This document shows, one piece after another, positions 4,728 through 61,677 of a stretch of DNA of 64,000 nt. The DNA lies in the NCBI GenBank assembly GCA_964016885.1, contig OZ024751.1:28582001-28646000 (forward strand). Reading direction: 5' to 3'. A program made the position numbers and the translations under genes. The number at the start of each line of letters is the position of its first letter. Position 1 is the first letter of the stretch. Source of the stretch: Eledone cirrhosa. Its lineage: Eukaryota. Below the pieces are notes generated by a model. It had not been told where the DNA came from. It did no database searches and was given only the letters and a program-made list of their open reading frames with translations.

Positions 4728-6813
4728 CATCATCATCATCATCACCGTGTTATGTCCTTTCTTCCACACTAGCATGGGTTAGACGGGTTGTCCTGTTGTG
4801 GGCAGTGTCCGGCCGGCTGACCTTGCCTTGCTCATACGGAACTGATTCTGGCTTGATTTCTACAGTTGGATGCCTTTCCTAACACCAACCTCATTTACAG
4901 TGAGTGCTGGGTGCTTTATTACATGGCACCTACATGTCCACTCTACAGTGTGGGCTGGGTGCTTTTTTGCCGTGGCACCTCCACGGCCACTTTGCAGTGG
5001 GAGGCTGTGGGGCATATTGTCTATATGCTTTGGATTGTACCCGTGGGGGAGGGGGGGGTCAGGTCTTCTATATTACTGCGTGACGTCAGAGAGGTGTAAT
5101 TGGGTAAGGTCGGCTTTTATCACCTCATCCCAGGTCTTCCTGGGTCTCCCCACTCCGCGATTTCCATCGACTTATAGTGCTCTGCACCTTTTTATGCAGC
5201 TGTCATCCTTCATATGCATCACATGTCCATATCAACGCAACCGACTCTCCTGCACACAGCATTTGATTCCTCTTATGCTCAGTCTCTCTCTCAATTCATT
5301 TATGCTTTGCCGTTCCCGTATATTACTGTTACACATCCATCGGAGCATGCAGGCTTCGTTTCTTTCTAATCTACACAAGTCTTCCACAGACAGCGCCCAG
5401 GTCTCACTACCATGTAACATTGCTGTTCGTATACACTTTCATTTTGAGGGAAAAGCCTTTTGCAGCTAGCAGTGGCAGTAGCTCCCTGAACTTCTTCCAT
5501 CCCATTTTTACCCTAGTTATTGTACTTTCTGAACACCCACCTCCGCTGCTAATTCAGTCACTTAGGTAGCAGAAGCTGTCTACTGTTTCTACAGAGCCCT
5601 CCCAGAGTTTGTTTCCTGTGGCTGTTTGCTGCTTGCTGTCCCAGCACAGCTGCTACATGTGAAGCCTACATTCTTAGTTAAGCTTCGTGAGATCCCGCTA
5701 CATCTCTTGTGTACCCATTGTTTGCATTTGGGGCAGAGAATGGAGTTCCTACCTACACATTTCCTACATACTGAGCAAGGCCATTTCCCTGAGGGGATCT
5801 GGGTTCTGTTTTCTCATCTACTTACAAGGACCTTAGTCTTTGTCAGGTTGACTTTGAGACCCTTTCTTTCTAGTCCATGCTTCCAAGTTTGGAATTTCTT
5901 CTCTAGTTCTACCATAGATTCAGCTATGAGTGCAAGGTCATCTGTATACAGGAGTTCCCATGGGCATCCGGTCTTAAACTCCTCCGTTATTGCCTGCAGG
6001 ACTATGATGAACAGGAGAGGGCTAAGAACAGAGCCCTGGTAGACACCGACCTGTACGCTAAATTCCTCACTATAGTCATTGCTAATCCTAACTTTGCTGA
6101 CTGCTCTCCTATACATGGCTTGTACAGCTTTCACAAGCCATTCATCTACTCCTAGTTTTCTAAGAGCCCACCAGATTATAGCACGGGGGACTCTGTCAAA
6201 GGCTTTCTCGAAATTGACGAATGCCAGGTAGAGTGGCTTACTTTTAGCTAGCTACTTTTCCTGTAACTGCCTCACTTGGAAGAGGGCATCAGTGGTGCCT
6301 CTTCCTGGCACAAACCCAAATTGCATCTCATCTAGTTTCACTCGGTCCTAATCAACTGTGCTATAACTCTTTCTGTTACTTTCATGACCTGGTCCATCAG
6401 CTTTATACCTCTATAGTTTCTTCTATCTAGTGCATCACCCACCTTTACCTTTGTAGCAGTTGACAATGATGCTGCTGCACCAATCCTTTGGTATGACACC
6501 TTCTAGTATTACCTGGTTAACAATATGTGTGACCTAACAACCCAGATGCCTTCAGCATCTCGGCAGCTATACCCGATGGACCAGTCGCCTTCCCGGTTTT
6601 CATATCTTTGATTGCCTTACTTACTACGCTGCTGCTGACTTGTACTGTTGGCCCCTCTATAGGGTCTACTTGGGGTAGGGTCTTTTCTTCCCATGCATTC
6701 TCCTCATTTATTAATCTATCATAATGGCTCTTCCACACATCTTTCTTCTCAGCACTTGTGAGGGCAAACTCACCTTTATCATTCCAGATACACTTCTCTC
6801 CATTGACATCACA
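4728..6813 (-). mobile_element. 5'-truncated, frameshifted RTE-like LINE (RT pseudogene)
   Basis: Peptides GKATGPSGIAAEMLKA, GVYQGSVLSPLLFIIVL, ELLYTDDLALIAES, GLKVNLTKTKVL and MLHGSETWAL in several frames. 3'UTR ends in (GAT)n. (TA)n at both junctions. Confidence 0.9.
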
Positions 6814-19205: not shown

Positions 19206-20597
19206 TCCTCTATATTTCTTTCTCATTTCATCTGCTGTATTTAGACTTGGAGAAGATATGGGCTCAATCAGGTTTTTTTTAAATGTCCTGGAAATGCTGT
19301 ATATAAATACAATGCCTCTATGACTCCTTCAAGAGTTATAGGACCATGCATTCCTGCATCTCTAACTTGCATTGCACTGGCTTTCCCAATACAATTCTAA
19401 ACATTATTACTATAATAACAAAATAAGAAATAATCTATGAAAATGACCATTCATTAAGTATCCTTGCACTATTAACATGAATTAACAAAAAAAGTAAAGA
19501 AAACTCAACCACCATCTTGTTTTTTAAATCAAAAGAAAGAAACACACTTTTTATAGTTGACAATTTTTTCCGGTCAGGAAATGTCTTCATGACGACAGAA
19601 ACCATCAAAGAGAGAGCAAAATATAACAGACAAGTATTTTAGGGCTATTTTCCCCCTTACTTTAACAGCAAGGGGGGAAATAACCTTGCAGGTCCTTTGA
19701 CAGTCTTCATATTATACATATTATGGAGTCCTTTTTTTAAGGCAATGTTTTCTGATTGAGTGCCCTTCGTAATGCCCCCCCCCCCCCCATCACATGACAA
19801 CATGACACACGGGAATCAATATATTATAAATAGATAAAAAATAAAATAAATAAAATAACATGGAAATAGATTATAAATAAATTAATAACAAGAAAATCAG
19901 TGTAAGACATGATTATTTTTTTATTATTATTTCCTATGAAGTTTTTTTGTTTATTTTTTTTTATCAGGAAAGAAATATTGCAGCAGCAACAATAGTAGTT
20001 ATAGTAGTAGTTATAGTAGTAATAGTAGTAGTTATAGTAGTAGAAGTAAAAGTAGTAGTTATAGTAGTAGTAGTAGAAGTAATAGTAGTAGCAGTAATAG
20101 TAATAGTAGTAGAAGTAATAGTAGTAGTAATAGTAATAGTAGCAGTAATAGTAGTAGTAATAGTAGCAGTAATAGTAGTAGTAAGTTAGATGTTCTTTCT
20201 TTGACTAGGTATAAGTCTTACCCATGTGGGACACATACACACACACACACACATACATGCATACACACATATATACACATTCACACATACATTATACACA
20301 CACAAACAAATATTAAAACAAAAATAACAATAAAATAAATGAAAAAAAAAAATCAAACAAAAGTCTAACATTAATAACTTCTGTCCACGCCCCCCCCCCC
20401 CACACCCTCTCCCCTCACTGACTGATTCTTATTGAAAGAGTTTCTTGTAAACAATAAAGAATACTGATTAAATGGTTGAAATGGAATGGAATAAATAAAT
20501 ATATATATAGAGAGAGAAAGAGAGAGACAGACAGACAGATAGAAAGATAGAAAGATAGATAGACAGAAAGATAGATAGATATATAGATAGATAGATA

Positions 20598-21534
20598 TCT
20601 TTCTTTATTTGCCACAGGGGCGTACAAAAATGGGACATTACAAGATGTGACGGCAGGGTTTTTACATAAAAATAACAATAAACTATATATAATAAAATAA
20701 CAATTGAAATCCCCAATAGGGGGGAACGTTACTGCAGGGTTGTTATACACCCCGTGGATAGAACAACCCTCAACACCAGGAATACGTTTTGTAGGTGTTC
20801 CTGTCTTCCCTCTGTTTATCTTACTCAACCTACAGGTTTATATACAGTGAAGGGCCATTTTTGCCACATTCACCCACCTTTCAGCGAATTTATTGGGGTG
20901 TAGCACCTCTCTCTCCACTCGCACCTTCCTTCTGAAGTGATACTTAAAGAAGGGGATAAGTTGTTGTCTGGAGAGAAAGGTGTTTGTCCTCAGTCCTTTT
21001 AACCTCGTCCACCATATTACCTCTTTCGCCATAGCCACCAGACAGAGGAAAATCTCCTCTCCTTCGTTCTTAAATGAAGGCGGCGGGGTGATCCTCACGA
21101 TGGACTCGGCTGACAACTGGATGCGTCCCACACGTGACAGCAGCTGTTCGACATAATTCCACAGGTCAGTCACTCCTGGGCACTGAACAATTGCGTGCAG
21201 AATGGTTTCAATGTCCTGCTCGCATCTTGGACAGGTCCTTTTGGCAGGATCTCTGCCAGGGCGTCCGTGCCTGTAGATTTTGTCTCGAACTGGTAGAGCT
21301 CCTCAGTAGCACTGCTAGGCCAGAGACCTCTAGAAGTTATCCATAGGCCCTGGACGGAAAGTCCTCCCGAACAGACTGGTCAGTTCGTCCCCCTCGATGC
21401 CTAGAGTTTCCCCGAGAACATCGTCGCACTTATCCTCCACTAATCCCCTATAGAATGTCTAAGTGGAGTCTCCGCTGATTGCCGTTTCCGCTTGGTAGAG
21501 GGCTGTGAGTGCCTGTAGGCACTCGAGGTGCCAG
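20598..21534 (-). mobile_element. 5'-truncated Tx1-like element, (ATCT)n-associated subfamily
   Basis: Peptide DLWNYVEQLLSRVGRIQLSAESIVRI..WWTRLKGL..RWVNVAKMA is homologous to the ORF2 C-terminus at 28772. 3' end CTGTGGCAAATAAAGAAAG. (ATAG)n on both sides. Confidence 0.9.
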
Positions 21535-21595
21535 AGATAGATAGATAGATAGATAGATAGGTAGGTAGATAAAGAGATAGATAGATAGATATATC

Positions 21596-22610
21596 AAATG
21601 GGTTGTTTAATACCTCGTAGATAGAACAACCTTCAACTCCAGGAGCGTGTTGTGCAAGTGCTCCTTTCCTCCTTTTGCTCTCCCCAATCACTCGGGCCAT
21701 TTTTGCTACATTCACCCACCTTTCAGTAAATTTACTGGGGTGCAGTGCCTCTCTCTCCACTCTGATTTTCCTTCTAAAGTGATACCTAAAGAAGGGAATC
21801 AATTGTTGTTCGGAGAGAAAGGCATCTGTCCTCAGTCCTCTCAATCTCGTCCACCATATAATCTCTTTCACCATAGCCACTGTACAGAGGAAAACCGCCT
21901 CTCTTTCATTTTTGAAAGAAGTTGGTGGTTTGATCCTTACTATGGACTCGGCAGTCAACTGGATTTGTCCCATACGTGACAGCAGTTGTTCTGGTTAGCT
22001 CCACAGGTCGGTTACGCCTGGGCAGTGTACAATTGCATGCAAGACGGTTTCAATGTCCTGCTCGCATCTTGGACACGTCCTCTTGGAAGTATCTCTGCCG
22101 GGGTGTCTGTGCCTGTAGATCTTGTCTCGAACTAATAGAGCTCCTCGGTAGCACTGCCAGGCCAGGGACCTCTGGAAGTTGTCCATGGGTCCCGGGCAGA
22201 AAGTCCTACTGAACAGACTGGTGAGCTCATCGTCATCGACGCCCAGAGTCTCTCCGAGCATGTCGTCGCACTTGTAATGTACTAACCCTCTATAGAATGT
22301 CAAAGTGCAGTCTCCACTGATTGTTGTGCCCACTTGAAAGAGGACTGTGAGCGCCTGAGCGCATTCAATGTGCCAGACGCCCAGTTTTTCGGTCTCCGCT
22401 TGACCCAGGACTGCAGCTCAGTCAGCGAGATAAGTTGCGGGAAGGCCCGTCTCACAAACAGGGCCCACACCGGTTGTTTGGTGAGGAATACCTGGAGATG
22501 CCGTAGCCTCAGCGCGTGTTTGCACATCATCAGCCACGCCATTCCCAGCCTTCCGTTGGAAGGGTGCTGACAGCAGACGGATCTCCTCACCAGTGGAGCC
22601 TGCTTCTTCC
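21596..22610 (-). mobile_element. Truncated Tx1-like element, (ATCT)n-associated subfamily
   Basis: Peptides RRSVCCQHP..GRLGMAWLMM, FQRSLAWQCYRGAL and CPRCEQDIETVLHAIVHCP, frameshifted. (ATAG)n on both sides. Confidence 0.9.
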
Positions 22611-22711
22611 AATAGATAGATAGATAAAGAGATAAATAAAACGAAAATGAGTTAATTTCTTAGGTAGGAAGTACCTCGTCCCTCATACACACACACACAC
22701 ATATATACACA

Positions 22712-24574: not shown

Positions 24575-25869
24575 CAGGGTGTGGACGATATTTGTTCGCA
24601 ATTTTCAACTGCTAATTTTATGCAAATTTTTTTTACTTCCGTTGTCACTCTTGTCTTCATAAAAACAGTGACTATATTTCCATTATTTATTTTCAGAATA
24701 ATTGATTATGAATAATTTTGAACCTCCAAATTTGTGGAAGAGACACGGAGTTCTTCTTGGAATCCGCGCCAGGAGGACAAATAAGGAAATTTCAGACTTT
24801 CTCAGCATCAGCAGGAGAATGGTGGAAAAGGTCAGAAAGGAATTGGAAGATTCAGGATTCGACTACGAAGCAACATCAGAGAGGAAAACACATGATCGAC
24901 GATCTGACGCCTTCAGAACGCCCGAGTTCATCTCTGAAGTTCAGGATATCATCAACAATGAACCTAGCAAGTCAATGCGTGCCATTGCAAGGGAGAAAAG
25001 CGTGGATGAAAAGCTCATTAGGCTGGTGGTACATGAAGACATTCGCTACGTTTCATACAAGATGAGGAAAGGACAATTTCTGTCAAAGGCGAGTGCAAGA
25101 AAAGCGACTGAACCACACAAAGGAGCTGATCAACAAGTTGAAACACCCACTGGAGCCAGACATGCTGTGGTTTTTCTCCGACAAGAAAAATTTCTGCCAA
25201 GACCAGAAGATCAACTCCCAGAACAACAGGTGATTCGCTGTCTCATCCAAAGACGTGCCCAGAATCATGCAGACAAAGTTTCCAGCGACAACATTGGTCT
25301 TAGGTGTTGTCAGCAGTCAAGGTGACGTCATGCCACCTCCCTTCTTCCCTGAGGGCCTTAAGCTGAACACCGATGGCTACGTTCTGAGCGAGGTAGTAAA
25401 GCCCTGGATCGACCAGGTAGCTACAGGTAGGCCGTACGTGTGGCAGGAAGACTCAGCGCCCTGCCATACCAGCCGAAAAACCCAAGCCTGGCTGTCAGAG
25501 AACTTCGTCGACCACACTTCACCTGACATCTGGCCTCCCAGCTCGCCTGACTGCAAGCCCCTCGACTTCTTTGTGTGGGGCGCAGTGGAACGAGACACCA
25601 ACAGATCTAGCTGCAATATGAAAGACGATCTGAAGGCCAGGATCACAAGTGCCTTTAGAGGCCTAAGTTGGGGGACAGAAGGCCTGTAGCCGGTTCAGAG
25701 GCCGCCTTGAGGCCGTCATCAAAGCCAATGGCGGGTTTATCAAGTGAGATCAAAAGAACAAGTCATGAAGACAAATTGACCCAAGTTTGATAAATATATC
25801 CTAAAAAATAAAACTACTGTGTTATTTTCCTAGACAGTTTTCTTGCGAACAAATATCGTCCGCACCCTG
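24575..25869 (+). mobile_element. Full-length Tc1/mariner-superfamily DNA transposon, DD37D (maT-type)
   Basis: 27-bp TIRs CAGGGTGYGGACGATATTTGTTCGCAA with 1 mismatch, TA on both flanks, 1295 bp long, transposase inside. Confidence 0.92.
24708..25747 (+). pseudogene. Disrupted DD37D transposase
   Basis: HTH-like N-terminus, WFFSDKKNF, WQEDSAPCHTS and WPPSSPDCKPLDF, with 37 residues between the 2nd and 3rd Asp. Frameshift near 25090, in-frame TGA at 25231-25233, and a further lesion near 25675. Confidence 0.88.
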
Positions 25870-27881: not shown

Positions 27882-28468
27882 CATTCCCGCATCAAATGGA
27901 ACAAAACCGTCTAACCCATTCCAGCATGGAAGATGGACGTTAAACGATGATGATGATATATATATATATATATGTACATATACTTACACACATATATATA
28001 ATATATATAATTAGAGACATCAAATTTTAAGAAAAGCCAACTCTTCTTCTATGAAAAGCCAACTCTTCTCCTCATAATGCTGTGTTTACTAGATTTTAAT
28101 TTTATAAGTTAGCCAACTAAAGAGAATAGAAAATTAATCAGGACTTGTTAAAAATGGAAAAATGGTGGTAGGAAAAAAATGGGAGGGATTTTGAAAGATC
28201 ATACCTTAAAAAAAAAAATAATAATATGAAAGGAAAATTTAGATAGCAATGTTATTATTATTGTTTGTTTTTGTAATCTTTTTTTTTTTTATATTTTCTC
28301 TTCAGATGAATTTACAGAAATTCCAGGGAAGAAAATTCGTCTTAGAAGGATAAGATAGACTTGAGGATTTAAAATTAAAATATAAAAAAATGCAAACAAA
28401 CAAGAACAAAAACAAACAAAGAAGAGGACAATGACAAATAAAGTATCTATTCATAATAATAATAATAA

Positions 28469-28510
<42 letters not shown>

Positions 28511-28771
28511 TTTCTTTATTAACCACAAGGGTTTACATAAAGTAGACATTAAGGACAGTGCAGGACAATGCAGGACGGTACAAATGGGCATTTCTGCGTG
28601 TAAAAAAAACAAAAATAGAGGATGTAACAAAAATAACAATGAAAATAACAATGAAAAATTCCCCAATAGGGGGGAGACTTCGGAGGAACATTTGTGGAGA
28701 AAGCCCAGTAAAAAGCCACAATGACCCTGACCACCAAGGCAAGTGCCCTCTCCCAGTTTTCCACCTTTAGT

Positions 28772-31700
28772 TTACAGATATATACTCAGAGTCGGCCCAT
28801 TCACTCGGGCCATTCTTGCTTCTCTCACCCATCTTTCAACAAAATGCTGGGAAGAGAGCACTTCCTTCTCTACTCTGATTTTCCTTTTCAAATGAAATTT
28901 GAAAAAGTCAATCAGAGCATCACCGAAGAGGTAAGTGCTCGTCTTCAGCCCTTTCAAACGTGTCCACCATACTATCTCTTTCGCCATGGCCACCAGACAG
29001 ATAAAAACTGCCTGCCCTTCCCGGCTAAAGGAGGAGGGCGGGGCAATCCTCACGATAGACTCAGATGATAGCTGGATCCGTCCTAAACGCGACAGCAGGT
29101 GTTCGACATAAACCCACAAGTCAGCAATTTTCGGACACTGGACGAGTGCGTGCAGGACGGTTTCGTCGCCCTGCGCGCATCTCGGACATGCCCGGCTGAC
29201 GGCACCTCCATGCCTGTAGAGTTTATCCCGAACTGGCAAGGCTCCTCGGTAGCACTGCCAGGCCAGAGATTTCTGGAAGTTGTCCATAGGCCCTGGCCCG
29301 AAGGTTCTTCCGAAGAGATTGGCTAGTTGATTTTCGTCGACGCCTAGAGTTTCCCCAAGTACGTCGTCGCTCTTCCCCTCCACTAATCCTCTATAGAACG
29401 CCGAGGTGGAGTTTCCACCGATCACATTGCCCGATTGGTCGAGGGCTGTGAGCGCCTGAAGACATTCCAGTCTCCAGGCGCTCCCTCTCGGTCTTCGCTT
29501 GACCCAGGACTGCAGCTCCGTCAAGGAAACGAGCTGGGGAAAAACGCGTCTAGCAAACGGCGACCACACCTGATCACCGTCGAGGAAGAGGTGGAGATGT
29601 CGTAGCCTGAGCGCGTGCCTGCGCATCATCAGCCACGGCATGCCCAGCCCTCCACGTAGCGGGTGTTGACAACAGATGGACCGCCTGACCATCGGAGCAC
29701 GTCCCTTCCACAAAAAGCGAAAGAGCAAACGCTCCAGCGCAGTCAGGCGAGGCTTAGGACAAGGTACGACGGTTAGGCGGTAGCAGATGACAGACGCGAT
29801 GTACGCGTTAGCCACCTCCGCTCGACCTTTCAGGGATAGCTTCCTCTCCGCCCATTTCTGGGTGAGAGAAGCCACCCTGCTCGTCACCTCGTCCCAGTTT
29901 TTGTCCGTCTGGAGGTCCGGACCGAACCAGACCCCTAGCAATTTAACCGGTCCGTCCGTCCAGCGCCCGACGACGCTGTTGGACGGCATGGACCTGCCTC
30001 TCCAGGTGCCGAGCTGCAGGCCCACTGACTTTTCCTGGTTGATCATTGCTCCTGTCACCGCTTCGTATTCTCTTAGTGTAGTGCCGATCGCCTCGATGTG
30101 TTTGGCGTTCGACACCACTACGGTGACATCGTCCGCATATGCTGACACGGATCTTCCGCATCCTAGTTCGCGCGGGACTCCCCTCAACGTCTCCAGTTTG
30201 TGCAGTAATGGCTCGAGAGTCAATACGTACAAGAGGGACGAGAGGGGACATCCTTGGCGGACCGAGCGCATGATGTTGAACGGTTCCGACAGGTGACCGT
30301 TCACTCTCACCACAGAGCAGATGTCGCTGTGCATGGCAGCGATCCAGCCTCTGAAGACGGGCCCAAAGCCAGCCGCCCTCAGGACTGCCGCTAGGTAACG
30401 ATGGTCGACCCTATCGAAAGCTTTCGACTGATCTAAATTGATCAAGGACCCACCCGTGCCAGGTTCCCTAGCTACCTTCTCTACGATGTATCGCATGAGG
30501 TGGAGGTTGTCGTGGATGGATCTGTCGGGAATGGCGCATGTCTGCGCCTCTCCCACCAGACCACCAACGACAAGCGCCAACCTCTTTGCTAGCACCTTGG
30601 CCAAAATCTTAAACTCTGTGTTTAGCAGAGTTATGGGCCGGAAATTGTCTATGTTATCCCCCTTGTTCGGATCCTTTCTCAGCAGTGCCACCGCTCCTCG
30701 GCTCACAGAACTGGGAATTCTCCCGTTCTGTTGCCAGTTGCAGTAGACGTCCGCCAAGAGGCCTCCGAACAAGTCTGGCATCTGTACGTAAAGTTCATAG
30801 GGCAGACCATCCAAACCAGGCGATTTACCCCTTGTGCAGCCAGTCATTGCCTCCCTTACTTCAGCGGCTGTTATCGGCTTTTCGCAACACTTCGCCTCAG
30901 TGGCCGAGAGCCGCGGCAGTCCGTCGAGGTAGACACTAAAGTCCATCCCTCTACCCGGCCCCCCGCTGCCCCCGAACAGCTGAGCGAAGTGTCGCTGAAA
31001 AGCTTCACACATTTGCCCGGGATCGAGTAGCATGCGCCCGTCGTGGTCCACCAAAGACCGGATCGTGGCTTTGTTGCCACGACGCGCCTCCGCCACTCGG
31101 GCCCATTGAACGGCTTTCGTCCCCTCGTGTCTGAGAGCACGCACCCTAGCTCTGACAACGCAGCCTTCGTGCTTTGCATTGAAGAATTGGTCAAGGGCCA
31201 ATTTCGCCGCAAGCACGTCGGTCGCAATGCCTTTGCTAAGCGCCTCGTCTAATTTTCTAACTAGTTCTCCCTCTGCTCTATTTTTCTCTATTGCTAAAGC
31301 CTTACTAAACCTAATCGATTCTATTCTAATCGCTCTTTTCAGAGCAAACCACCACTTGTTGTTGACGATGGCCCCCGTCAACGCCCGCTTAACTAGTTCG
31401 CTAATCCGGTCTCTGTAGGCCTTGCGCGCTGGTAAGGACGCGTTTAGCTTCCAGTAGCCGGGTCCTCGTCTATGAAGCCTATCTAAGTCAAGCACACAGA
31501 TCACGAATTTGTGGTCCGTGTAGCTGACTATCTTGAATTGTGGACAGCCTATGCTAGACCTATCTATTTCCCTACAAAATACTCTATCTAGATATGATCT
31601 GGATGACCCTATGCGGTTTGTCCAAGTCCACATTGGCACATTCGGGAAATCCAATCGGTACCTGTCAGACAGTTCAAAACGCCTGAGCAGGTTGGTGAGG

Positions 31701-32191
31701 CTCTTGCACCCTCCACCCCTATCCGCTAATCCCACACAGTCCCAGCGTGCATCTAAGATCCCGTTCCAGTCGCCCACTAACACTAAAGAGCGCGACGTTC
31801 CAAGAAAGGTCTCCAGACGCCGGAAGAAATCAGGCCGCCCTGCTCCTGTCGGGGCATAGACGGCCACTAGCCTGAAAGCTTGCCCGTCTCCGCTGGTCAC
31901 GTCCAGCACCACCAGCTTACCCTCTGGGTCCAGGAAGATGGCCCGTATGGCGAGATCCAAACCTCTCCGAAAAAGCACAGCAACTCCTCCACCGGATCCA
32001 GGACGGCTGGGAGATGCGTACACATCGTAGCCGCCGAAGATCGGTGCGAAGGCCCGTGCTTCGGAGATTCTGGTCTCGCTGATGGCCACTACATCTATGT
32101 TTAGTGACCTGAGGTCGTTGAGCAGGTGACCCTGCTTCCATGACGACCCCAAGCCACGCGCATTTATGCTGCCTATTCTGAGTGAGGTCAT
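28772..32191 (-). CDS. ORF2 polyprotein: AP endonuclease + reverse transcriptase + C-terminal Zn finger (1139 aa)
   Basis: APE motifs SINARGL, ISET, VYAP, GDWN, SYLD and TDH. RT motifs KSPGLDGL, NFRPITLLN, LDQSKAFDRV, RQGCPLS and AYADD. C-terminal CPRC..ETVLHALVQC. Confidence 0.97.
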   Translation of the reverse strand: MTSLRIGSINARGLGSSWKQGHLLNDLRSLNIDVVAISETRISEARAFAPIFGGYDVYASPSRPGSGGGVAVLFRRGLDLAIRAIFLDPEGKLVVLDVTSGDGQAFRLVAVYAPTGAGRPDFFRRLETFLGTSRSLVLVGDWNGILDARWDCVGLADRGGGCKSLTNLLRRFELSDRYRLDFPNVPMWTWTNRIGSSRSYLDRVFCREIDRSSIGCPQFKIVSYTDHKFVICVLDLDRLHRRGPGYWKLNASLPARKAYRDRISELVKRALTGAIVNNKWWFALKRAIRIESIRFSKALAIEKNRAEGELVRKLDEALSKGIATDVLAAKLALDQFFNAKHEGCVVRARVRALRHEGTKAVQWARVAEARRGNKATIRSLVDHDGRMLLDPGQMCEAFQRHFAQLFGGSGGPGRGMDFSVYLDGLPRLSATEAKCCEKPITAAEVREAMTGCTRGKSPGLDGLPYELYVQMPDLFGGLLADVYCNWQQNGRIPSSVSRGAVALLRKDPNKGDNIDNFRPITLLNTEFKILAKVLAKRLALVVGGLVGEAQTCAIPDRSIHDNLHLMRYIVEKVAREPGTGGSLINLDQSKAFDRVDHRYLAAVLRAAGFGPVFRGWIAAMHSDICSVVRVNGHLSEPFNIMRSVRQGCPLSSLLYVLTLEPLLHKLETLRGVPRELGCGRSVSAYADDVTVVVSNAKHIEAIGTTLREYEAVTGAMINQEKSVGLQLGTWRGRSMPSNSVVGRWTDGPVKLLGVWFGPDLQTDKNWDEVTSRVASLTQKWAERKLSLKGRAEVANAYIASVICYRLTVVPCPKPRLTALERLLFRFLWKGRAPMVRRSICCQHPLRGGLGMPWLMMRRHALRLRHLHLFLDGDQVWSPFARRVFPQLVSLTELQSWVKRRPRGSAWRLECLQALTALDQSGNVIGGNSTSAFYRGLVEGKSDDVLGETLGVDENQLANLFGRTFGPGPMDNFQKSLAWQCYRGALPVRDKLYRHGGAVSRACPRCAQGDETVLHALVQCPKIADLWVYVEHLLSRLGRIQLSSESIVRIAPPSSFSREGQAVFICLVAMAKEIVWWTRLKGLKTSTYLFGDALIDFFKFHLKRKIRVEKEVLSSQHFVERWVREARMARVNGPTLSIYL

Positions 32192-32226
32192 GTTTAAAAT
32201 AGAGTGGAAAAGATGGGAAAGACCAC

Positions 32227-34233
32227 TTACCGTATTTTTGGTAGAGGAGGGATGGTTTTTACATCCCTTTTCACTTGATCGTCTGGTGAAGGGACCGTTG
32301 AATCGTCCCTTCGGCTGGTCGTCGGCTCTTCTAAGAGAATGTCTGAATATACTCTTCGATTAATGGTTCCTCCTAGGTCCCTGAAATCACCAACTGCGTT
32401 GGGGAATTTCGTTTTAATGTTTGTGTATTGTTTCTGTGCTATTTTTAGCAGTCTTATGTTAGTTGGCGTTTTGATTGGTGCTGGTATTATGTAGTCCTGT
32501 TGTGAAATGTCTGTGTGTTCAATTATGTAAGTCATTAGTTTCTTGTTGTGTGTGTTTATTGCCGTGCATTTGTTTTTCTGGGGGTGGGGTGTGGTTCTGC
32601 TATTTTCTTGTCGTTGTTGCTGGGTGTGTGTGTTTTGTTGTTGTGTTTGCGATGTTGGTGCTTGTGGTGTTGAAGGTGTTGTTGGCGGTGGGGTTGTCGC
32701 CGGTGGTGATGGTGGTGCTGGTGTGGGTGGTGATGGTGTTGGTGGTGTTGCTGCTGTGGGTCTCTTTGCAGTAGACTTTACCCTTTTCTCATTTCTTTCC
32801 TCCCTTTTCAAAGGCGACGATGCGCTGCTTCTGCGTTTGTGCCTTCTTGAGACCTTTTGCCATCCCTCTCCCACCTCACACTCCATGTCTGATTCTGTAA
32901 GGTCGGGGAGGGGTACCAGCTCCACTCTTTCACTTGTTGTTGTTGGTGATGTTTGCACTGGAGTCTCTGTTGCAGCTGCATTTGGTATTGCTGTTGTTGT
33001 TGTTAATATTTCCACTGCTGCTGCTGTCTTTGATTTCCGTGGAGTGGGTATGGGTGCCACGGACCTATCGTTCCTGGTTGCCGCTTGTCCTGTTGCTGGT
33101 AGCCGTGGAACCGGATTCGGGAGGAGGGGGGTTTTCTCCTTTCTCAGGGTCTTCTCGTTGCAGAAGGCCCTGAGGTGAGTCTTCGATCCACAGCGAAAGC
33201 ATTTCGGGCGTTTGCCCTCAACACTTATGGGCAGTTGAGTGCCGTTATCGAAGTCTATCACATCCGGGATAGCTTCGATGCACTCCTGGTTGGTTTGGAT
33301 TAGCATCTCAATGGAGGAGCCGACCCAATCTTCTCTTACTTTTTTCTGTACTTGCAGTACAGTTGTTTTGTCCTCGATTCCGACGAGGACAGACGCGGCC
33401 AGCCAAGAAGGGGTCATTCCGGGGGGGACGTGGGTCAGTTTGACCCTCACAATTTTTTGCCCGCAGTAGGAGGGCACCAACACCATTTCCTCGCTCCTTA
33501 GGGTCACTACTGATTGGGCCTTTGCCTCCTGGGGTGTGGCAAAAAGTACGTCTACGGTGGCGTATTTTTTGCCTCGGGTGATGTGCGTTTTCCTCTGCCA
33601 CACAGACCCCAAGGCTTTTTGTATTTGGGCCTCTGTGGCTCTTTCCACCCTACGGGATTTTGTACTTACTGTACGGTACGTGACCGTACAGTGCTCTTGG
33701 GTTTCGAAAAAATTTTTCGCTGCCTTGCAGATTGCTCGGTGTCCGTTCTTTGTCACCATCTTCTTCGCTTCCTCTAATTCCTCATTTGTTATGAGGATTG
33801 TTTCCAGGTTTTTCGCAATACCTGCAAATGAGATTGGTTTTTCTCTGCTGTTGTTGTTGTCGTCAGAGCTGCTGGTACTTTTGTTGTTGCTGCAGGTACT
33901 ACGACTACTGCCTCCGCCGCTGTTGCTGTGGTTGTTGTTGGTGTTGCTGCTGCTAATGCTGTTGTTGTTTATGCTGCTGGTGATGCTGTTGCGGCTGCTA
34001 CTGTTGTTTTCATTGTCACTGTTGCTGTTGTTATTACGGCTGCTACTGCTATTATTCCTGACGTCAGACGAATGAACTGGGTTTTCGTATTTCCCGCACA
34101 CCTGTTTCGTCGCTGTCGTCGTCGTCGTGGAGAAACCTTGCACGCTTTGCACGAGACTTTTCTTTTCTTTCGTCACTTGCGAAAGAGAAGGGAGGGAGAG
34201 AGACACATTTAAAGAAGGGAGGGAGAGAGACAA
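32227..34233 (-). CDS. ORF1 gag-like nucleic-acid-binding protein
   Basis: CX2CX4HX4C knuckle CFRCGSKTHLRAFC, GWQKVSRRHKRR motif and a Pro/Thr-rich C-terminus. The frame is open from 34233, but the first in-frame ATG is at 33759, so the start is uncertain. Confidence 0.85.
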   Translation of the reverse strand: MSLSLPSLNVSLSLPSLSQVTKEKKSLVQSVQGFSTTTTTATKQVCGKYENPVHSSDVRNNSSSSRNNNSNSDNENNSSSRNSITSSINNNSISSSNTNNNHSNSGGGSSRSTCSNNKSTSSSDDNNNSREKPISFAGIAKNLETILITNEELEEAKKMVTKNGHRAICKAAKNFFETQEHCTVTYRTVSTKSRRVERATEAQIQKALGSVWQRKTHITRGKKYATVDVLFATPQEAKAQSVVTLRSEEMVLVPSYCGQKIVRVKLTHVPPGMTPSWLAASVLVGIEDKTTVLQVQKKVREDWVGSSIEMLIQTNQECIEAIPDVIDFDNGTQLPISVEGKRPKCFRCGSKTHLRAFCNEKTLRKEKTPLLPNPVPRLPATGQAATRNDRSVAPIPTPRKSKTAAAVEILTTTTAIPNAAATETPVQTSPTTTSERVELVPLPDLTESDMECEVGEGWQKVSRRHKRRSSASSPLKREERNEKRVKSTAKRPTAATPPTPSPPTPAPPSPPATTPPPTTPSTPQAPTSQTQQQNTHTQQQRQENSRTTPHPQKNKCTAINTHNKKLMTYIIEHTDISQQDYIIPAPIKTPTNIRLLKIAQKQYTNIKTKFPNAVGDFRDLGGTINRRVYSDILLEEPTTSRRDDSTVPSPDDQVKRDVKTIPPLPKIR

Positions 34234-34550
34234 TCTTCTCTCTGCTGTAGTGATGATTGAGGAAGAAGAAGACGGAATGAGTGGGAGTGACGTATGAAAT
34301 TTTTTTTTTTGGTAGCCATGTTTTTTTGTTTAAAATGAAATTTTGGGTACAAAACCCCAATAACTGGTTATTTAACCCCGAAGGGCCAAATAACGGACAG
34401 AAAGACCCCTCTCACGAGGAGGAGGGTGTCTTTATCAACAATTTGGTTCAAGTTTTAAGCAATTTACAATTGTTTTAACGGTTAAAAATTACTATACCTT
34501 ACAGAGCCGAGCCTCCGTCAACCATGGCATTCAATAATAATAATAATAAT

Positions 34551-35055
34551 GCTTTCTTTATTAACCACAAGGGTTTACACAAAGTAGACATTAAGGACAG
34601 TACAGGACAGTACAAAAGGGCATTTCTGCGTGTAAAAAAAACAAGAAACAGAGGATGTAATAATAGAGCAATGAAAAAATTCCCCAATAGGGGGGAGACT
34701 TCTGAGGGACATTCGTGGAGAAAGCCCATTAAAAAGCCACAGTGACCCTGACCACCAGGGCAAGTGCCCTCTCCTAGTTTTCCACCTTTAATTTACAGAC
34801 ACATACTCAGAGAAGGCCCATTCACTCGGGCCATACTTGCCTCTCTCACCCATCTTTCAACAAAATGTTGGGAAGAGAGCACTTCCCTCTCTACCCTGAT
34901 TTTCCTTTTCAAATGAAATTTGAAAAAGTTAATCAGGGCATCACCAAAGAGGTAAGTGCTCGTCTTCAGCCCTTTCAAACAAGTCCACCATACTATCTCT
35001 TTCGTCATGGCCTTCCCGGCTAAAGGAAGAGGGCGGGCAATCCTCACGATGGACT
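34551..35055 (-). mobile_element. 5'-truncated copy of the same Tx1-like family, directly upstream of the full-length copy
   Basis: Highly similar to 28509-29060 with short internal deletions. Its (ATT)n tail abuts the 5' end of the full-length element. Confidence 0.92.
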
Positions 35056-35131
35056 AATGATGATTGTAACAATAATATATGATAATAATTATTATAAAGA
35101 TGATGATGATGACAATGATGATTACGACAAC

Positions 35132-35162
<31 letters not shown>

Positions 35163-35163
<1 letters not shown>

Positions 35164-35758
35164 TTTCTTTATTGGCCACAAGGGCTGACATAAAGAAACA
35201 CATTACAGATGGCACAGGACGGTACGATGTGGGTTTTGTGTGTGTAAAGATTTTTATTATTTATATAAGAAAAGAAGAGAAAAAAGACATAGAAACATAT
35301 ATATATATATAAACAATAAAAATGTAAATTGAAACAATGAAAAATTCCCCAATATGGGCGAAACCTCTGAGGGTTACTCGTGGCAAAAACCTCACAAAAG
35401 ACCACGGCCACCCTGACCACCAGGGCAAGCGCCCTCTCTCAGTTTTGTACTCCTCAGTCTACAGGCGCATACTCAGGGCGGACCCGTTCACTTGGGCCAT
35501 TCTCGCTACATTCACTCACCTTTCAACAAACGTACTAGAAGACAACACTTGCCTCTCCACCCTGATTTTCCTCTTCAAGTGAAACTTGAAAAAGTTAATT
35601 AGGGATTCACCGAAGAGGAAAGTGTCCGTCTTCAACCCTTTCAACCTTGTCCACCACACAATCTCTTTCGCCATGGCCACCAGGCAGATGAAACTGCCTG
35701 CCCTTCCTCTTCTTTAAAGGAGGATGGCAGGGCTATCTGCACAATGGACTCAGTCGGT
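35163..35758 (-). mobile_element. 5'-truncated Tx1-like element, diverged (ATT)n subfamily
   Basis: Homologous ORF2 C-terminus, 3' end CCCTTGTGGCCAATAAAGAAATC(ATT)n, and TAATAAT at the 5' junction. Confidence 0.85.
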
Positions 35759-35801
35759 TAATAATATGTTGGAGGAAAATGAGGATACAAAAATATATAA
35801 A

Positions 35802-35871
<70 letters not shown>

Positions 35872-36582
35872 TGAATAAAACAAAAGGTAGTATTAATTCT
35901 AGATCTTTAGCAAAATAAAATAAAATAAACTACAAAACTAAAAAACAGGTAAAAATCCCATATTTCAAATAACAATAGTTATTGTCAATTTCTTTCTGTA
36001 AGTCGACAAATATTTTTCAGTTTGTAATTTTATATATAAATATACATATATATATATATATATACATATATACATATATATATATTTTATATATATAATA
36101 TATATACGATATTAAATAAATGGAAACTATATTTATAAATGGAAACTTTTATGCAAAGTTTTATTTATATCGTAAATATAATATATATCTATATTTTATA
36201 TTTAATATATATATATTTTATATATATAATATATATATATATTCATATCTCTCTCTGTCTCTCTCTCTCTATATATATGATTGTATAGAGAGAGATTTTG
36301 TAAAGTTTTCTATCATGACATACTTATTTTTCATTATTTTTGTAATTTATCATTTTATTTTATTTATATTTGCTTTCCTTTTATATATATATATTAAAGT
36401 GACACAATGTAGTAATCATCATCTGGAATGTGAAATTGTCAATTAGTTGTTTAAAAGTAGAATCCAACAATTAACAGCTATTTTTTCTTCTTTTGTCATT
36501 ATCACTATCATTATTAATATTATTATTATCATCATGATTATGATTATATGATTTTGTATTGTTAATATAATCATTCATTGTC

Positions 36583-48306: not shown

Positions 48307-49645
48307 GGGAGGAAGCTATCACTGAAAGGTCGCGCGGAGGTGGCGAATGCGTACATCGCGTCCATCATCTACTACCGCCTGACCGTCGTGCCTTGCTCCC
48401 CCGTCCGCGCCTCGTCAAGTTGGAACGGCTCCTCTTCAAATTCTTGTGGAATGGACAAGGTCCGTTGGTGAGGTGGTCCATCTGCTGCCACCACCCTCTA
48501 CGCGGAGGGCTTGGCATGCCGTGGCTAATGATGCGCAGACATGCGCTGAGGCTGCGACATCTCCAGATATTCTGCCTAAACGGTGAACAGGTGTGGTCGC
48601 CGTTTATCAGACAGGCCTTTCTGCAGCTCATTTCTTTGACTGAGCTGCAGTCCTGGGTCAAGAACAGACCGAGACTGGGTGATTGGCACCTGGAATGTTG
48701 CCAGGCACTCACTGCCCTCTACCAAGCGGGCAATGCGATCAGTGGAACTTCCACTCTCGAGTTCTATAGAGGATTAGTGGTGGGCAAGTACGATGACGCA
48801 CTCGGAGAAGCTTTGGGCCTCGACGAAGTCGAACTGATCAGTCTGTACCGGAGGACTTTCGAGCCGGGGACGATGGACAATTTCCAGAAATCCCTCGCTT
48901 GGCAGTGTTACTGGGGGCACTGCCGGTCCAGGATAAACTCTACAGGCATGGAAGTGCTGTCAGACGGACCTGCCCAAGATGGGCACAGAGCGACGAAACC
49001 GTTCTGCATGCACTTGTCCAATGTCCGTGCATTACTGACTTGTGCAGCTATGTCGAACAGCTACTGTCGCGTGTGGAACGAATCCGGCTATCGACCCGCC
49101 ACCTTCCTTAGGTCAGGAAGAGCAGGCAATTTTCCTCTGTCTGGTGGCCGTTGCGAAAGAGGTTATATGGTGGACCAGATTAAAAGGACTGAAGATGGAC
49201 ACTTTTCTCTTCGGCGAATCCCTCATCAACTTCTTCAAGTTTCACCTGGTAAGGAAGGTGAGGGTGGAGAGAGAAGTGCTGCCCCCCAGTAAATTTGCTA
49301 AAAGGTGGATGAATGTGGCGAGAATGGCCCCTGTGAATGGGCCTACTCTGACCATGCACCTATAGGCTAGCTAACTTGAGGAGAGGGGTGCTATCCCTGG
49401 GTGCCCTAGAAGCGCAGGGTGGTTCAGGATTGGTGGGGTACCTGAGTCACCCCTGGGTCGTCCACGCCCTATCGGGGAATTTATTTTGTTATATTTATGC
49501 ATAGTTTATTTTATATTTTCATAGTTTCATTGTTAAATTAGTCTTGCCATTGTGCACTTTTACTCGACCTTATTGTAAACCCCACTGTCCGTGTCTTTGT
49601 ATTGTCCCTACATGTCTGCTCTTGTGGCTAATAAATGAAATCACT
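48307..49645 (+). mobile_element. 5'-truncated, frameshifted Tx1-like element, (ATT)n-associated
   Basis: RKLSLKGRAEVANAYIAS, GGLGMPWLMMRRHALRLRHL, FQKSLAWQCY, CPRWAQSDETVLHALVQCP and NGPTLTMHL. 3' end CTTGTGGCTAATAAATGAAATCACTATTATT. ATT-like repeat at the 5' junction. Confidence 0.92.
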
Positions 49646-60746: not shown

Positions 60747-60759
60747 GAAAATGAAATGA

Positions 60760-60793
<34 letters not shown>

Positions 60794-60796
<3 letters not shown>

Positions 60797-61677
60797 GAGA
60801 TGAATAATATGCTGTTGAATGAGGATAAATTTGATCTAATCCACTTTGGAAAAAAGGATGCCCTGAAACTACCATACTCTCTTCCTTCGGGTGAAACTCT
60901 AGTGGCTTCCAATAACATCGGAGACCTGGGAGTAGTTGTGGACAACAATATAAGCTGGGCCACTCATATAAACAGCAAAGTTGATATGGCCTACAGAATG
61001 TGTTCCTGGATTCTCAGAACTTTCCAGTCAAGAGATATCCACACTGTTGTCCTTCTCTTCTCCACTTTTGCCCGACCCCACCTTGAATACTGTTGTCCAC
61101 TGTGGTCACCCCACACAAAACAAAGTATCATGAAAGTTGAAGCACCCCAAAGGTCAATTACAAAAAAGATAGTTGGCATGACAGGCCTTGACTATTGGGG
61201 TCGATTAGAAAAGCTCAAACTTTATTCTCTCCAACGTCGCTGTGAGCGCTACATTATCTGTATGATGTGAAAAATATTCCATCAGCTTAGCCCAAATGAT
61301 GTTGGCATCACCTTTAGTGTACACCCAAGGCTTGGACCCCGTTCTATCTGCCGACAACAAAAATCCCACTTGCATCACATAACAACAATACGGCACAATT
61401 ATTTCACCTCAATTGGCCTTGCATTCTTTAACATTACACCAAAACACATCAAAGCAGAGACAGACTCCATCAAGTTCAAGAAGTCTTTGGATAAATTCCT
61501 TCAAGAAATCCCGGATATGCCTCCTACACCCTGATATGCCTCCGTAAACAAAAACTCTCTGCTCGAGTGGGCCATGGTGCCCAAATACTGATTTGTAAGA
61601 CTTCGCCAGGTGGTGCTATTAAGTTAGACATGGCCTGGGCCAATACTGGCCGAAACCTATCAAAGTTATCAAAGTTA
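60794..61677 (+). mobile_element. 5'-truncated CR1-group LINE
   Basis: NNMLLNEDKFDLIHFG, DLGVVVDNNISW, ARPHLEYCCPLWSPH and LKLYSLQRR.ERY, with in-frame stops downstream. 3' end (TATCAAAGT)2 followed by (TA)n. Confidence 0.88.

What the first reader, a model, noticed from the sequence alone, without database searches (positions are those of the whole stretch)
28509..34532. Intact, potentially active microsatellite-targeting Tx1-like retrotransposon
Seen: both ORFs are uninterrupted with all APE, RT and Zn-finger motifs, CpG-rich sequence is retained, and (AAT)n lies on both flanks, whereas the other coding elements in the window are decayed. The 3' tail is (ATT)n rather than poly(A). Inference: a recent insertion of an (ATT)n-specific element whose tail recreates its own target. 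It may contribute to the genome's microsatellite load and is a candidate site-specific integration tool.
Basis: partly seen in the sequence, partly recalled or inferred. Interest (0 to 1): 0.75.

Follow-up and report, generated by a model that had tools for sequence, protein, structure and literature searches.

The report
Young retrotransposon targeting ATT repeats
This is one copy of a young jumping-gene family, probably from an octopus, whose copies sit almost without exception inside runs of the three-letter repeat ATT and likely lengthen those runs when they land; repeat-seeking elements of this kind are known, and this particular copy has a frameshift at the start of its first gene.

Summary
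Real element: a 6,024-bp APE-RT LINE of the L1/Tx1 group (minus strand, 34532-28509). The genome holds 1,604 exact 5' heads, of which 1,550 (96.6%) follow at least four in-phase ATT units, and 3,336 exact tails. Fetched copies differ by a median 0.4%, and 10 of 23 5'-truncated copies also abut ATT. (ATT)n targeting and recent activity are well supported. Two corrections. (1) This copy is not intact: an A11 run puts the family's ORF1 start out of frame (36 aa), whereas 32 of 39 relatives keep both ORFs. (2) ATT is not an obligatory tail: 17 copies run into (CTT)n after one ATT. Yet 3' tracts of young copies (median 18 units) are twice the 5' tracts (9) and shorten with age, so repeats are likely gained at insertion. 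The 5' flank here is the tail of an older relative. Dong/R4-like LINEs share the tracts, and a sister family uses (TATC)n. The scan noted AAT trains and the GATA family before, on other DNA of this genome. No RNA, polymorphism or labelled-Tx1 phylogeny test was possible. New member of a known kind.

The parts
28509..34532 (-). Full-length (6,024 bp) L1/Tx1-group LINE copy; head GAATGCC..., 3' end ...AATAAAGAAATC
   Evidence: 98.7-99.8% blastn identity to 39 genomic copies
34320..34532 (-). 5' UTR, 213 bp
34300..34319 (-). Family ORF1 start ATGGCTACC followed by A11 run; out of frame with ORF1 body, gives 36 aa
32227..34329 (-). ORF1 reading frame: low-complexity N-terminus, predicted tandem RRM plus CCHC knuckle, Pro/Thr-rich C-terminus; first in-frame ATG at 33759
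28772..32191 (-). ORF2, 1,139 aa: APE endonuclease, RT, zf-RVT; one conservative difference from the family majority (R572K)
28509..28771 (-). 3' UTR with AATAAA (28515-28520) 6 nt before the element end
28453..28508 (-). 3' flank (ATT)10, one interruption, about (ATT)8
34533..34550 (-). 5' flank (ATT)6, also the tail of the older upstream copy
34551..35064 (-). Older 5'-truncated relative (85%), 3' end of ORF2 plus 3' UTR
35065..35161 (-). Degenerate ATT/ATC tract ending in (ATT)10 between second and third copy
35162..35753 (-). Third, more diverged 5'-truncated relative (72-78%)

Best explanation
The window holds one copy of a young, high-copy L1/Tx1-group LINE whose copies sit in (ATT)n tracts in a fixed phase and orientation; it likely inserts by target-primed reverse transcription after its APE endonuclease nicks the (AAT)n strand, and it likely leaves the downstream tract longer than it found it. 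Shown: the family size and youth, the ATT flanks of full-length and truncated copies, head-to-tail arrays, a 5' tract of about 9 units at all ages, a 3' tract of about 18 units in young copies and 9 in older ones, and the ORF1 frameshift in this copy. Inferred: a pol II RNA ending one to a few AUU units after AAUAAA pairs with the nicked AAT strand; reverse transcription starts at the element end; extra units arise from target-site duplication plus slippage between RNA and target repeats, as reported for eel UnaL2; at least 5-6 ATT units are needed upstream. Each insertion leaves ATT on both sides, so later copies, sister families and Dong/R4-like LINEs pile up in the same tract. This copy probably cannot make full ORF1p, unless the missing A is an assembly error; its ORF2 looks competent.
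For: 1,550 of 1,604 heads follow (ATT)4 against 0.018% background. 10 of 23 truncated copies abut ATT at scattered truncation points, p about 1e-17 against a generous 0.5%. Only 102 and 67 tail-pattern matches lack A at position 1 or 4, against 3,336 exact tails counted with a longer pattern. ORF2 is intact in 39 of 39 copies and both ORFs in 32 of 39; ORF2 variants are 60 synonymous to 54 nonsynonymous. The 3' tract exceeds the 5' tract in 20 of 21 solo copies. 3' length tracks identity (rho 0.61, p 3e-6, n=49) and 5' length does not (rho -0.15). The 5'+3' sum is at least 24 units in 74% of 31 young copies, while only about 950-1,400 such tracts lie elsewhere (252 counted with one boundary letter). 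19 same-strand and 0 opposite-strand neighbour pairs among 100 heads.
Against: 13 of 23 truncated copies lack ATT at the junction: 3 abut ACT/ACC/CTT tracts, 5 join Dong-like DNA, 1 joins a sister head, 4 join other DNA. Later deletions, which are common in older copies, may explain these but this was not shown. 17 copies run ATT-(CTT)n with long pure CTT tracts the element cannot template, so long 3' tracts do not need RNA slippage. All 14 of the CTT-ended copies with a visible head still have ATT, not CTT, upstream, although (ATT)5(CTT)7 occurs only 22 times against 1,065 for the reverse order; the model does not explain this. No empty site was measured and TSD length cannot be read in pure repeats. 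Ageing of the pure run partly reflects point interruptions (degenerate tract 19.5 to 12 units). The 39 copies were the best scorers among 486 candidates, so intactness is biased upward.
Confidence: 0.75

Rival explanations
1. Pure targeting without synthesis: the element picks unusually long pre-existing ATT tracts, nicks near their upstream part and adds nothing beyond a target-site duplication; old tracts then shrink by ordinary decay.
For: CTT-ended copies have long target-derived 3' tracts and only 0-3 ATT. Dong-like and SINE tails supply fresh long tracts; 30 of 74 tails are followed by Dong-like or SINE sequence.
Against: Roughly half of all tracts of 24 or more units would have had to be hit by one young subfamily, against under 1% of all tracts. 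Background median is 6 units. The age effect is one-sided.
Confidence: 0.3
2. The 5' ATT is partly carried on the RNA head (transcription starting in or reading through the upstream tract), and the cDNA end anneals to an upstream ATT tract, sometimes a different one from the tract that was nicked, deleting what lies between.
For: 96.6% of full-length heads but 10 of 23 truncated ends have ATT; 5' lengths cluster at 6-10 with a sharp floor; 14 of 14 ATT-element-CTT copies despite rare compounds; 5 truncated copies join Dong-like DNA directly.
Against: Two heads sit directly on (CTT)n with no ATT. Truncated copies reach ATT at many positions. Upstream tracts often have natural contexts such as SINE, Tx1 or Dong ends. 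Later deletions can explain direct joins.
Confidence: 0.2
3. No targeting: the element carries ATT at both ends and spreads by ordinary L1-like insertion, or by segmental or tandem duplication.
For: One pair (L031/L041) shares flanks and looks like a duplication; tandem arrays exist.
Against: Most flanks beyond the tracts are unrelated. Truncated copies abut ATT. Flanking tracts grade into degenerate host repeats. Sister families with different heads show the same junction.
Confidence: 0.04

Closest known systems
Kibi (TC)n and Koshi (TTC)n of teleosts; crocodilian Tx1 families on (TTCC)n/(TTTC)n (PMC4494074, passages and section 15; PMC3812793, passages)
   Same: APE-type two-ORF LINE of the Tx1/L1 group inserted specifically in a microsatellite
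   Different: Target is (ATT)n, in a probable octopod; about 1,600 near-identical heads; relationship to Kibi/Koshi not tested, since no labelled sequences were available
Dong (Bombyx, Anopheles, Biomphalaria), TAA-targeting (PMC3812793, passage)
   Same: Same repeat target; Dong/R4-like copies flank many of these insertions on the opposite strand
   Different: Dong/R4 use a C-terminal restriction-like endonuclease (clade label recalled; PD..D-type motif seen); this element uses an N-terminal APE
Eel UnaL2 3' repeat with template slippage (PMC1636434, passages)
   Same: Proposed way of adding repeat units at the start of reverse transcription
   Different: UnaL2 is an L2-clade element (recalled); no sequence-specific target is described in the passages read; here slippage is only inferred
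Recently active L1-Tx1 families of Octopus vulgaris (PMC13282606, passages with Table 1: 13 families, 421 insertions)
   Same: Young L1-Tx1 and Dong-R4 LINEs in an octopus
   Different: No target analysis in the passages read; supplement not read

Membership tests
L1 group of non-LTR retrotransposons | ORF2 with N-terminal APE, RT and C-terminal Zn motif | tested here: met
   Pfam; best PDB match human L1 ORF2p 180 bits against R2 80 bits
Tx1 clade | RT phylogeny with named Tx1 references | tested here: inconclusive
   Quick tree: octopod clade with an Argonauta protein (SH-aLRT 100), sister to unnamed proteins, near fish and turtle RT proteins; no labelled Tx1 or L1 reference could be included
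Tx1 clade | Type I ORF1p (RRM plus CCHC) rather than Transposase_22 (PMC5203782, passages) | tested here: met
   No Transposase_22 hit; CX2CX4HX4C conserved; model pLDDT 66 with two RRM-like units, best hits tandem-RRM proteins at E 0.002-0.003, which is weak
Microsatellite-specific Tx1 (Kibi/Koshi type) | One repeat type in more than 20% of flanks (criterion in PMC4494074) | tested here: met
   96.6% of heads; 10 of 23 truncated ends
Kibi or Koshi families proper | (TC)n or (TTC)n target | tested here: not met
   Only 2 heads directly on (CTT)n; 17 tails on (CTT)n after one ATT
Dong / R4 clade | Restriction-like endonuclease at the C-terminus | tested here: not met
   APE at the N-terminus; no RLE domain
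Active autonomous copy | Both ORFs intact from their native starts | tested here: not met
   ORF1 from the family ATG is 36 aa in this copy; met by 32 of 39 relatives
Active autonomous copy | Transcription and insertion polymorphism | not testable with these tools
TPRT product | Target-site duplication | tested here: inconclusive
   Invisible in pure repeats; at most 3-5 nt in ATT-element-CTT copies; one possible 11-nt case (L078)

The most novel reading that the evidence does not exclude
These octopod Tx1 elements are microsatellite factories: each insertion needs a short ATT seed, synthesises about ten new units by telomerase-like slippage between RNA and target, and so breeds targets for itself and for Dong/R4 LINEs. 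Sister families with 60-63% identical endonucleases have switched between (ATT)n and (TATC)n, giving a natural series for mapping repeat recognition, and some insertions join two different tracts.
Probability: 0.4. Interest if true: 0.65.

Novelty: new member of a known kind. Interest (0 to 1): 0.45.

Why it matters
It adds (ATT)n, and in the sister family (TATC)n, to the repeats I found reported as Tx1 targets. The family is young and large enough (about 1,600 heads) to measure junction rules statistically, which the few-copy fish examples may not allow. If the one-sided, age-dependent excess of 3' repeats reflects synthesis, it is a direct route from retrotransposition to the high microsatellite load of this genome, testable from empty alleles. 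As a gene-insertion tool it is weak, because the target is dispersed over very many sites.

Tried and rejected
Tails running into (TATC)n were first taken as off-target copies; 16 fetched loci proved to be a sister family at 72-76% nt identity where long alignments existed. An inherited CTT tail was rejected: 18 CTT/GTT-class rows are scattered in a poorly resolved tree and have unrelated downstream junctions. Later insertion of an AAG-tailed LINE at the junction was not supported: an ATT tract of 4 or more units appears downstream in 4 of 20 loci. Recurrent 3' flanks are not transductions; they are reverse-strand ends of Dong/R4-like LINEs, sister heads or SINEs. No RNA holder listed; this is no evidence on expression. 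The run guessed as RNA showed only low-depth or low-complexity matches. Polymorphism at this locus was not tested. No Rfam hit in 28300-36000. The ESM Atlas, the representative-protein search and a second cluster look-up gave no result. Kojima and Fujiwara 2004 is not held and Repbase could not be searched, so an existing (ATT)n Tx1 entry cannot be excluded. Searches that found no report of an ATT-targeting Tx1. Supplements were not read; those of PMC4494074 and PMC13282606 may bear on novelty.

Full report
Observation. The element runs 34532 to 28509 on the minus strand (6,024 bp). ORF2 (32191-28772, 1,139 aa) has Exo_endo_phos, RVT_1 and zf-RVT domains, all catalytic motifs and one conservative difference from the family majority. 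CpG o/e is 0.82 against 0.42 elsewhere in the window. The ORF1 frame is stop-free for 700 codons, but the ATG used by the family (34319) is followed by 11 A and yields 36 aa. Of 32 distinct heads with a pure A-run, 27 have 12 A, 3 have 11 and 2 have 13; others carry an in-frame 9-nt variant. So 'intact' holds for ORF2 only; a homopolymer error is not excluded. The 5' (ATT)6 is the tail of an older truncated relative, followed by a third.

Family. The 3.0-Gb genome has 1,604 exact 26-nt heads and 3,336 exact 34-nt tails. I fetched the 39 best other matches among 40 scored of 486 candidates: 98.7-99.8% identical to the window copy, ORF2 intact in 39 of 39, both ORFs in 32 of 39. Among the 38 with a located 3' end plus the window copy, the median pairwise distance is 0.4% and one pair at different loci has no substitutions. 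ORF2 codon variants were 60 synonymous and 54 nonsynonymous. The nearest named protein is from Argonauta hians (73% over the RT region), so the host is probably an octopod. The ORF1 core model (7 sequences, pLDDT 66) shows two RRM-like units before a CCHC knuckle, with weak matches to tandem-RRM proteins. The quick RT tree groups the family with other octopod copies but held no labelled Tx1 reference.

Targeting. 1,550 of 1,604 heads are directly preceded by (ATT)4 in one phase; the background in 14 arbitrarily chosen 10-kb regions is 0.018%. Of the first 100 tails on contig C1, 69 had no exact head at the expected distance. Of these 69, I judged 23 to be 5'-truncated; the rest were full-length with variant heads, carried a sister 5' half, or had internal deletions. 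Ten of the 23 abut ATT at scattered points; 3 abut related trinucleotide tracts, 5 join Dong-like DNA, 1 joins a sister head and 4 join other DNA. Among 100 listed heads, 19 neighbour pairs under 10.5 kb lie on the same strand and none on opposite strands. Of 74 tails, 20 are followed by reverse-strand 3' ends of two Dong/R4-like LINEs, 15 by Tx1 heads, 10 by a tRNA-type SINE and 29 by other DNA (the Dong/R4 and SINE labels rest on recalled motifs).

Tail or target. In 21 solo young copies the pure tract has a median of 9 units upstream and 19 downstream, longer downstream in 20. In 49 non-tandem copies (of 61) the upstream median is 9 at both ages, while the downstream median is 18 in copies at least 99% identical (n=29) and 9 in older ones (n=20). 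Background tracts of 4 or more units have median 6 (n=81; n=11). The two flanks sum to 24 or more units in 74% of 31 young copies, whereas 252 tracts of that size start after an A, about 950-1,400 in all by the boundary shares. A net gain at insertion is therefore likely; how much is duplication and how much synthesis is unknown. Against a simple RNA-templated tail: 17 of 67 tails with a non-A at position 4 continue as (CTT)n, 7 loci have 2-4 units before CTT, and these CTT tracts are long and lie in natural contexts. All 14 CTT-ended copies with a visible head, among 23 loci examined, have ATT and no CTT upstream. Yet (ATT)5(CTT)7 occurs only 22 times against 1,065 for the reverse order, and just 2 heads sit directly on CTT, both ending in ATT. 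This class is unexplained; a strong boundary preference and two-site joining are both open.

Mechanism. Shown: phase, orientation, arrays, asymmetry, age effect. Inferred from general TPRT knowledge: the APE nicks the AAT strand; an RNA ending shortly after AAUAAA pairs through its first AUU units; RT starts at the element end; duplication and slippage, as described for UnaL2 (PMC1636434, passages), add units; 5' joining needs 5-6 or more upstream units. I put targeting at about 0.95 and synthesis beyond duplication at about 0.55.

Comparison. Microsatellite-specific Tx1 elements are known: Kibi (TC)n, Koshi (TTC)n and crocodilian (TTCC)n/(TTTC)n families (PMC4494074, passages and section 15); TAA is listed as the Dong target (PMC3812793, passages). 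Young L1-Tx1 and Dong-R4 families are tabulated for Octopus vulgaris without target analysis in the passages read (PMC13282606); PMC9115989 has no Tx1 mention. Also seen: PMC4640811 and PMC5203782 (passages) and PMC6007223 (abstract). I found no ATT-targeting Tx1 in seven searches, but the founding 2004 paper and Repbase were unavailable. Earlier notes of this scan describe AAT trains of Tx1 with Dong and a GATA family elsewhere in this genome; I had reached those readings before that look-up, and they are not independent support.

Verdict. A real, young, (ATT)n-specific family; a new member of a known kind; this copy has a broken ORF1 start; lengthening of the target is likely but needs empty alleles. 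Interest 0.45.

Noticed in passing
window 20491-22700 (minus strand); L159-L174: Sister Tx1 family with (TATC)n on both flanks, two truncated copies in tandem in the window; ORF2 about 69% and endonuclease 60-63% identical to the ATT family.
   Followed up: partly
L104, L107, L112, L137, L148, L156: Sister subfamily with another head (GGCGACC) and an ORF1 core only about 50-54% identical, but 93-97% identical DNA from about element position 2265 onward; also ATT-flanked. It looks like a swap of 5' UTR and ORF1.
   Followed up: partly
window about 32189-32236 and 28732-28777: RNA just before the ORF2 start can pair with RNA just after the ORF2 stop (-40.7 kcal/mol against -15 +/- 5 for random windows, 3 of 500 as low); a GTAAGT lies in the 5' arm. 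Lead from earlier notes.
   Followed up: partly
runs X1-X13; X5 and X6: Near-identical ORF2 DNA in runs labelled as ten different organisms. X5 covers the whole element at depth 6-10 and about 99% identity. Close relatives, carry-over of a high-copy repeat and horizontal transfer are not distinguished.
   Followed up: partly
L199-L220: 12 of 22 (ATT)(CTT) compounds are ATT blocks of 5-13 units embedded in CTT tracts, as if ATT had been inserted.
   Followed up: no
L100-L158: About 20 of 69 older copies carry internal deletions of 30 bp to several kb.
   Followed up: no
window 48309-49644: 5'-truncated older Tx1 relative (76%) with degenerate ATT on both sides, followed by a SINE end with an ATT tail.
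   Followed up: partly
window 24702-25689: Frameshifted transposase with weak HTH hits, probably Tc1/mariner type (label recalled).
   Followed up: no
window 5835-6329 and 60755-61270: Fragments of other LINE reverse transcriptases.
   Followed up: no
L031 and L041: Two copies on different contigs share flanks at 99%, a likely segmental duplication; one has 12 A and the other 11 A at the ORF1 start.
   Followed up: partly
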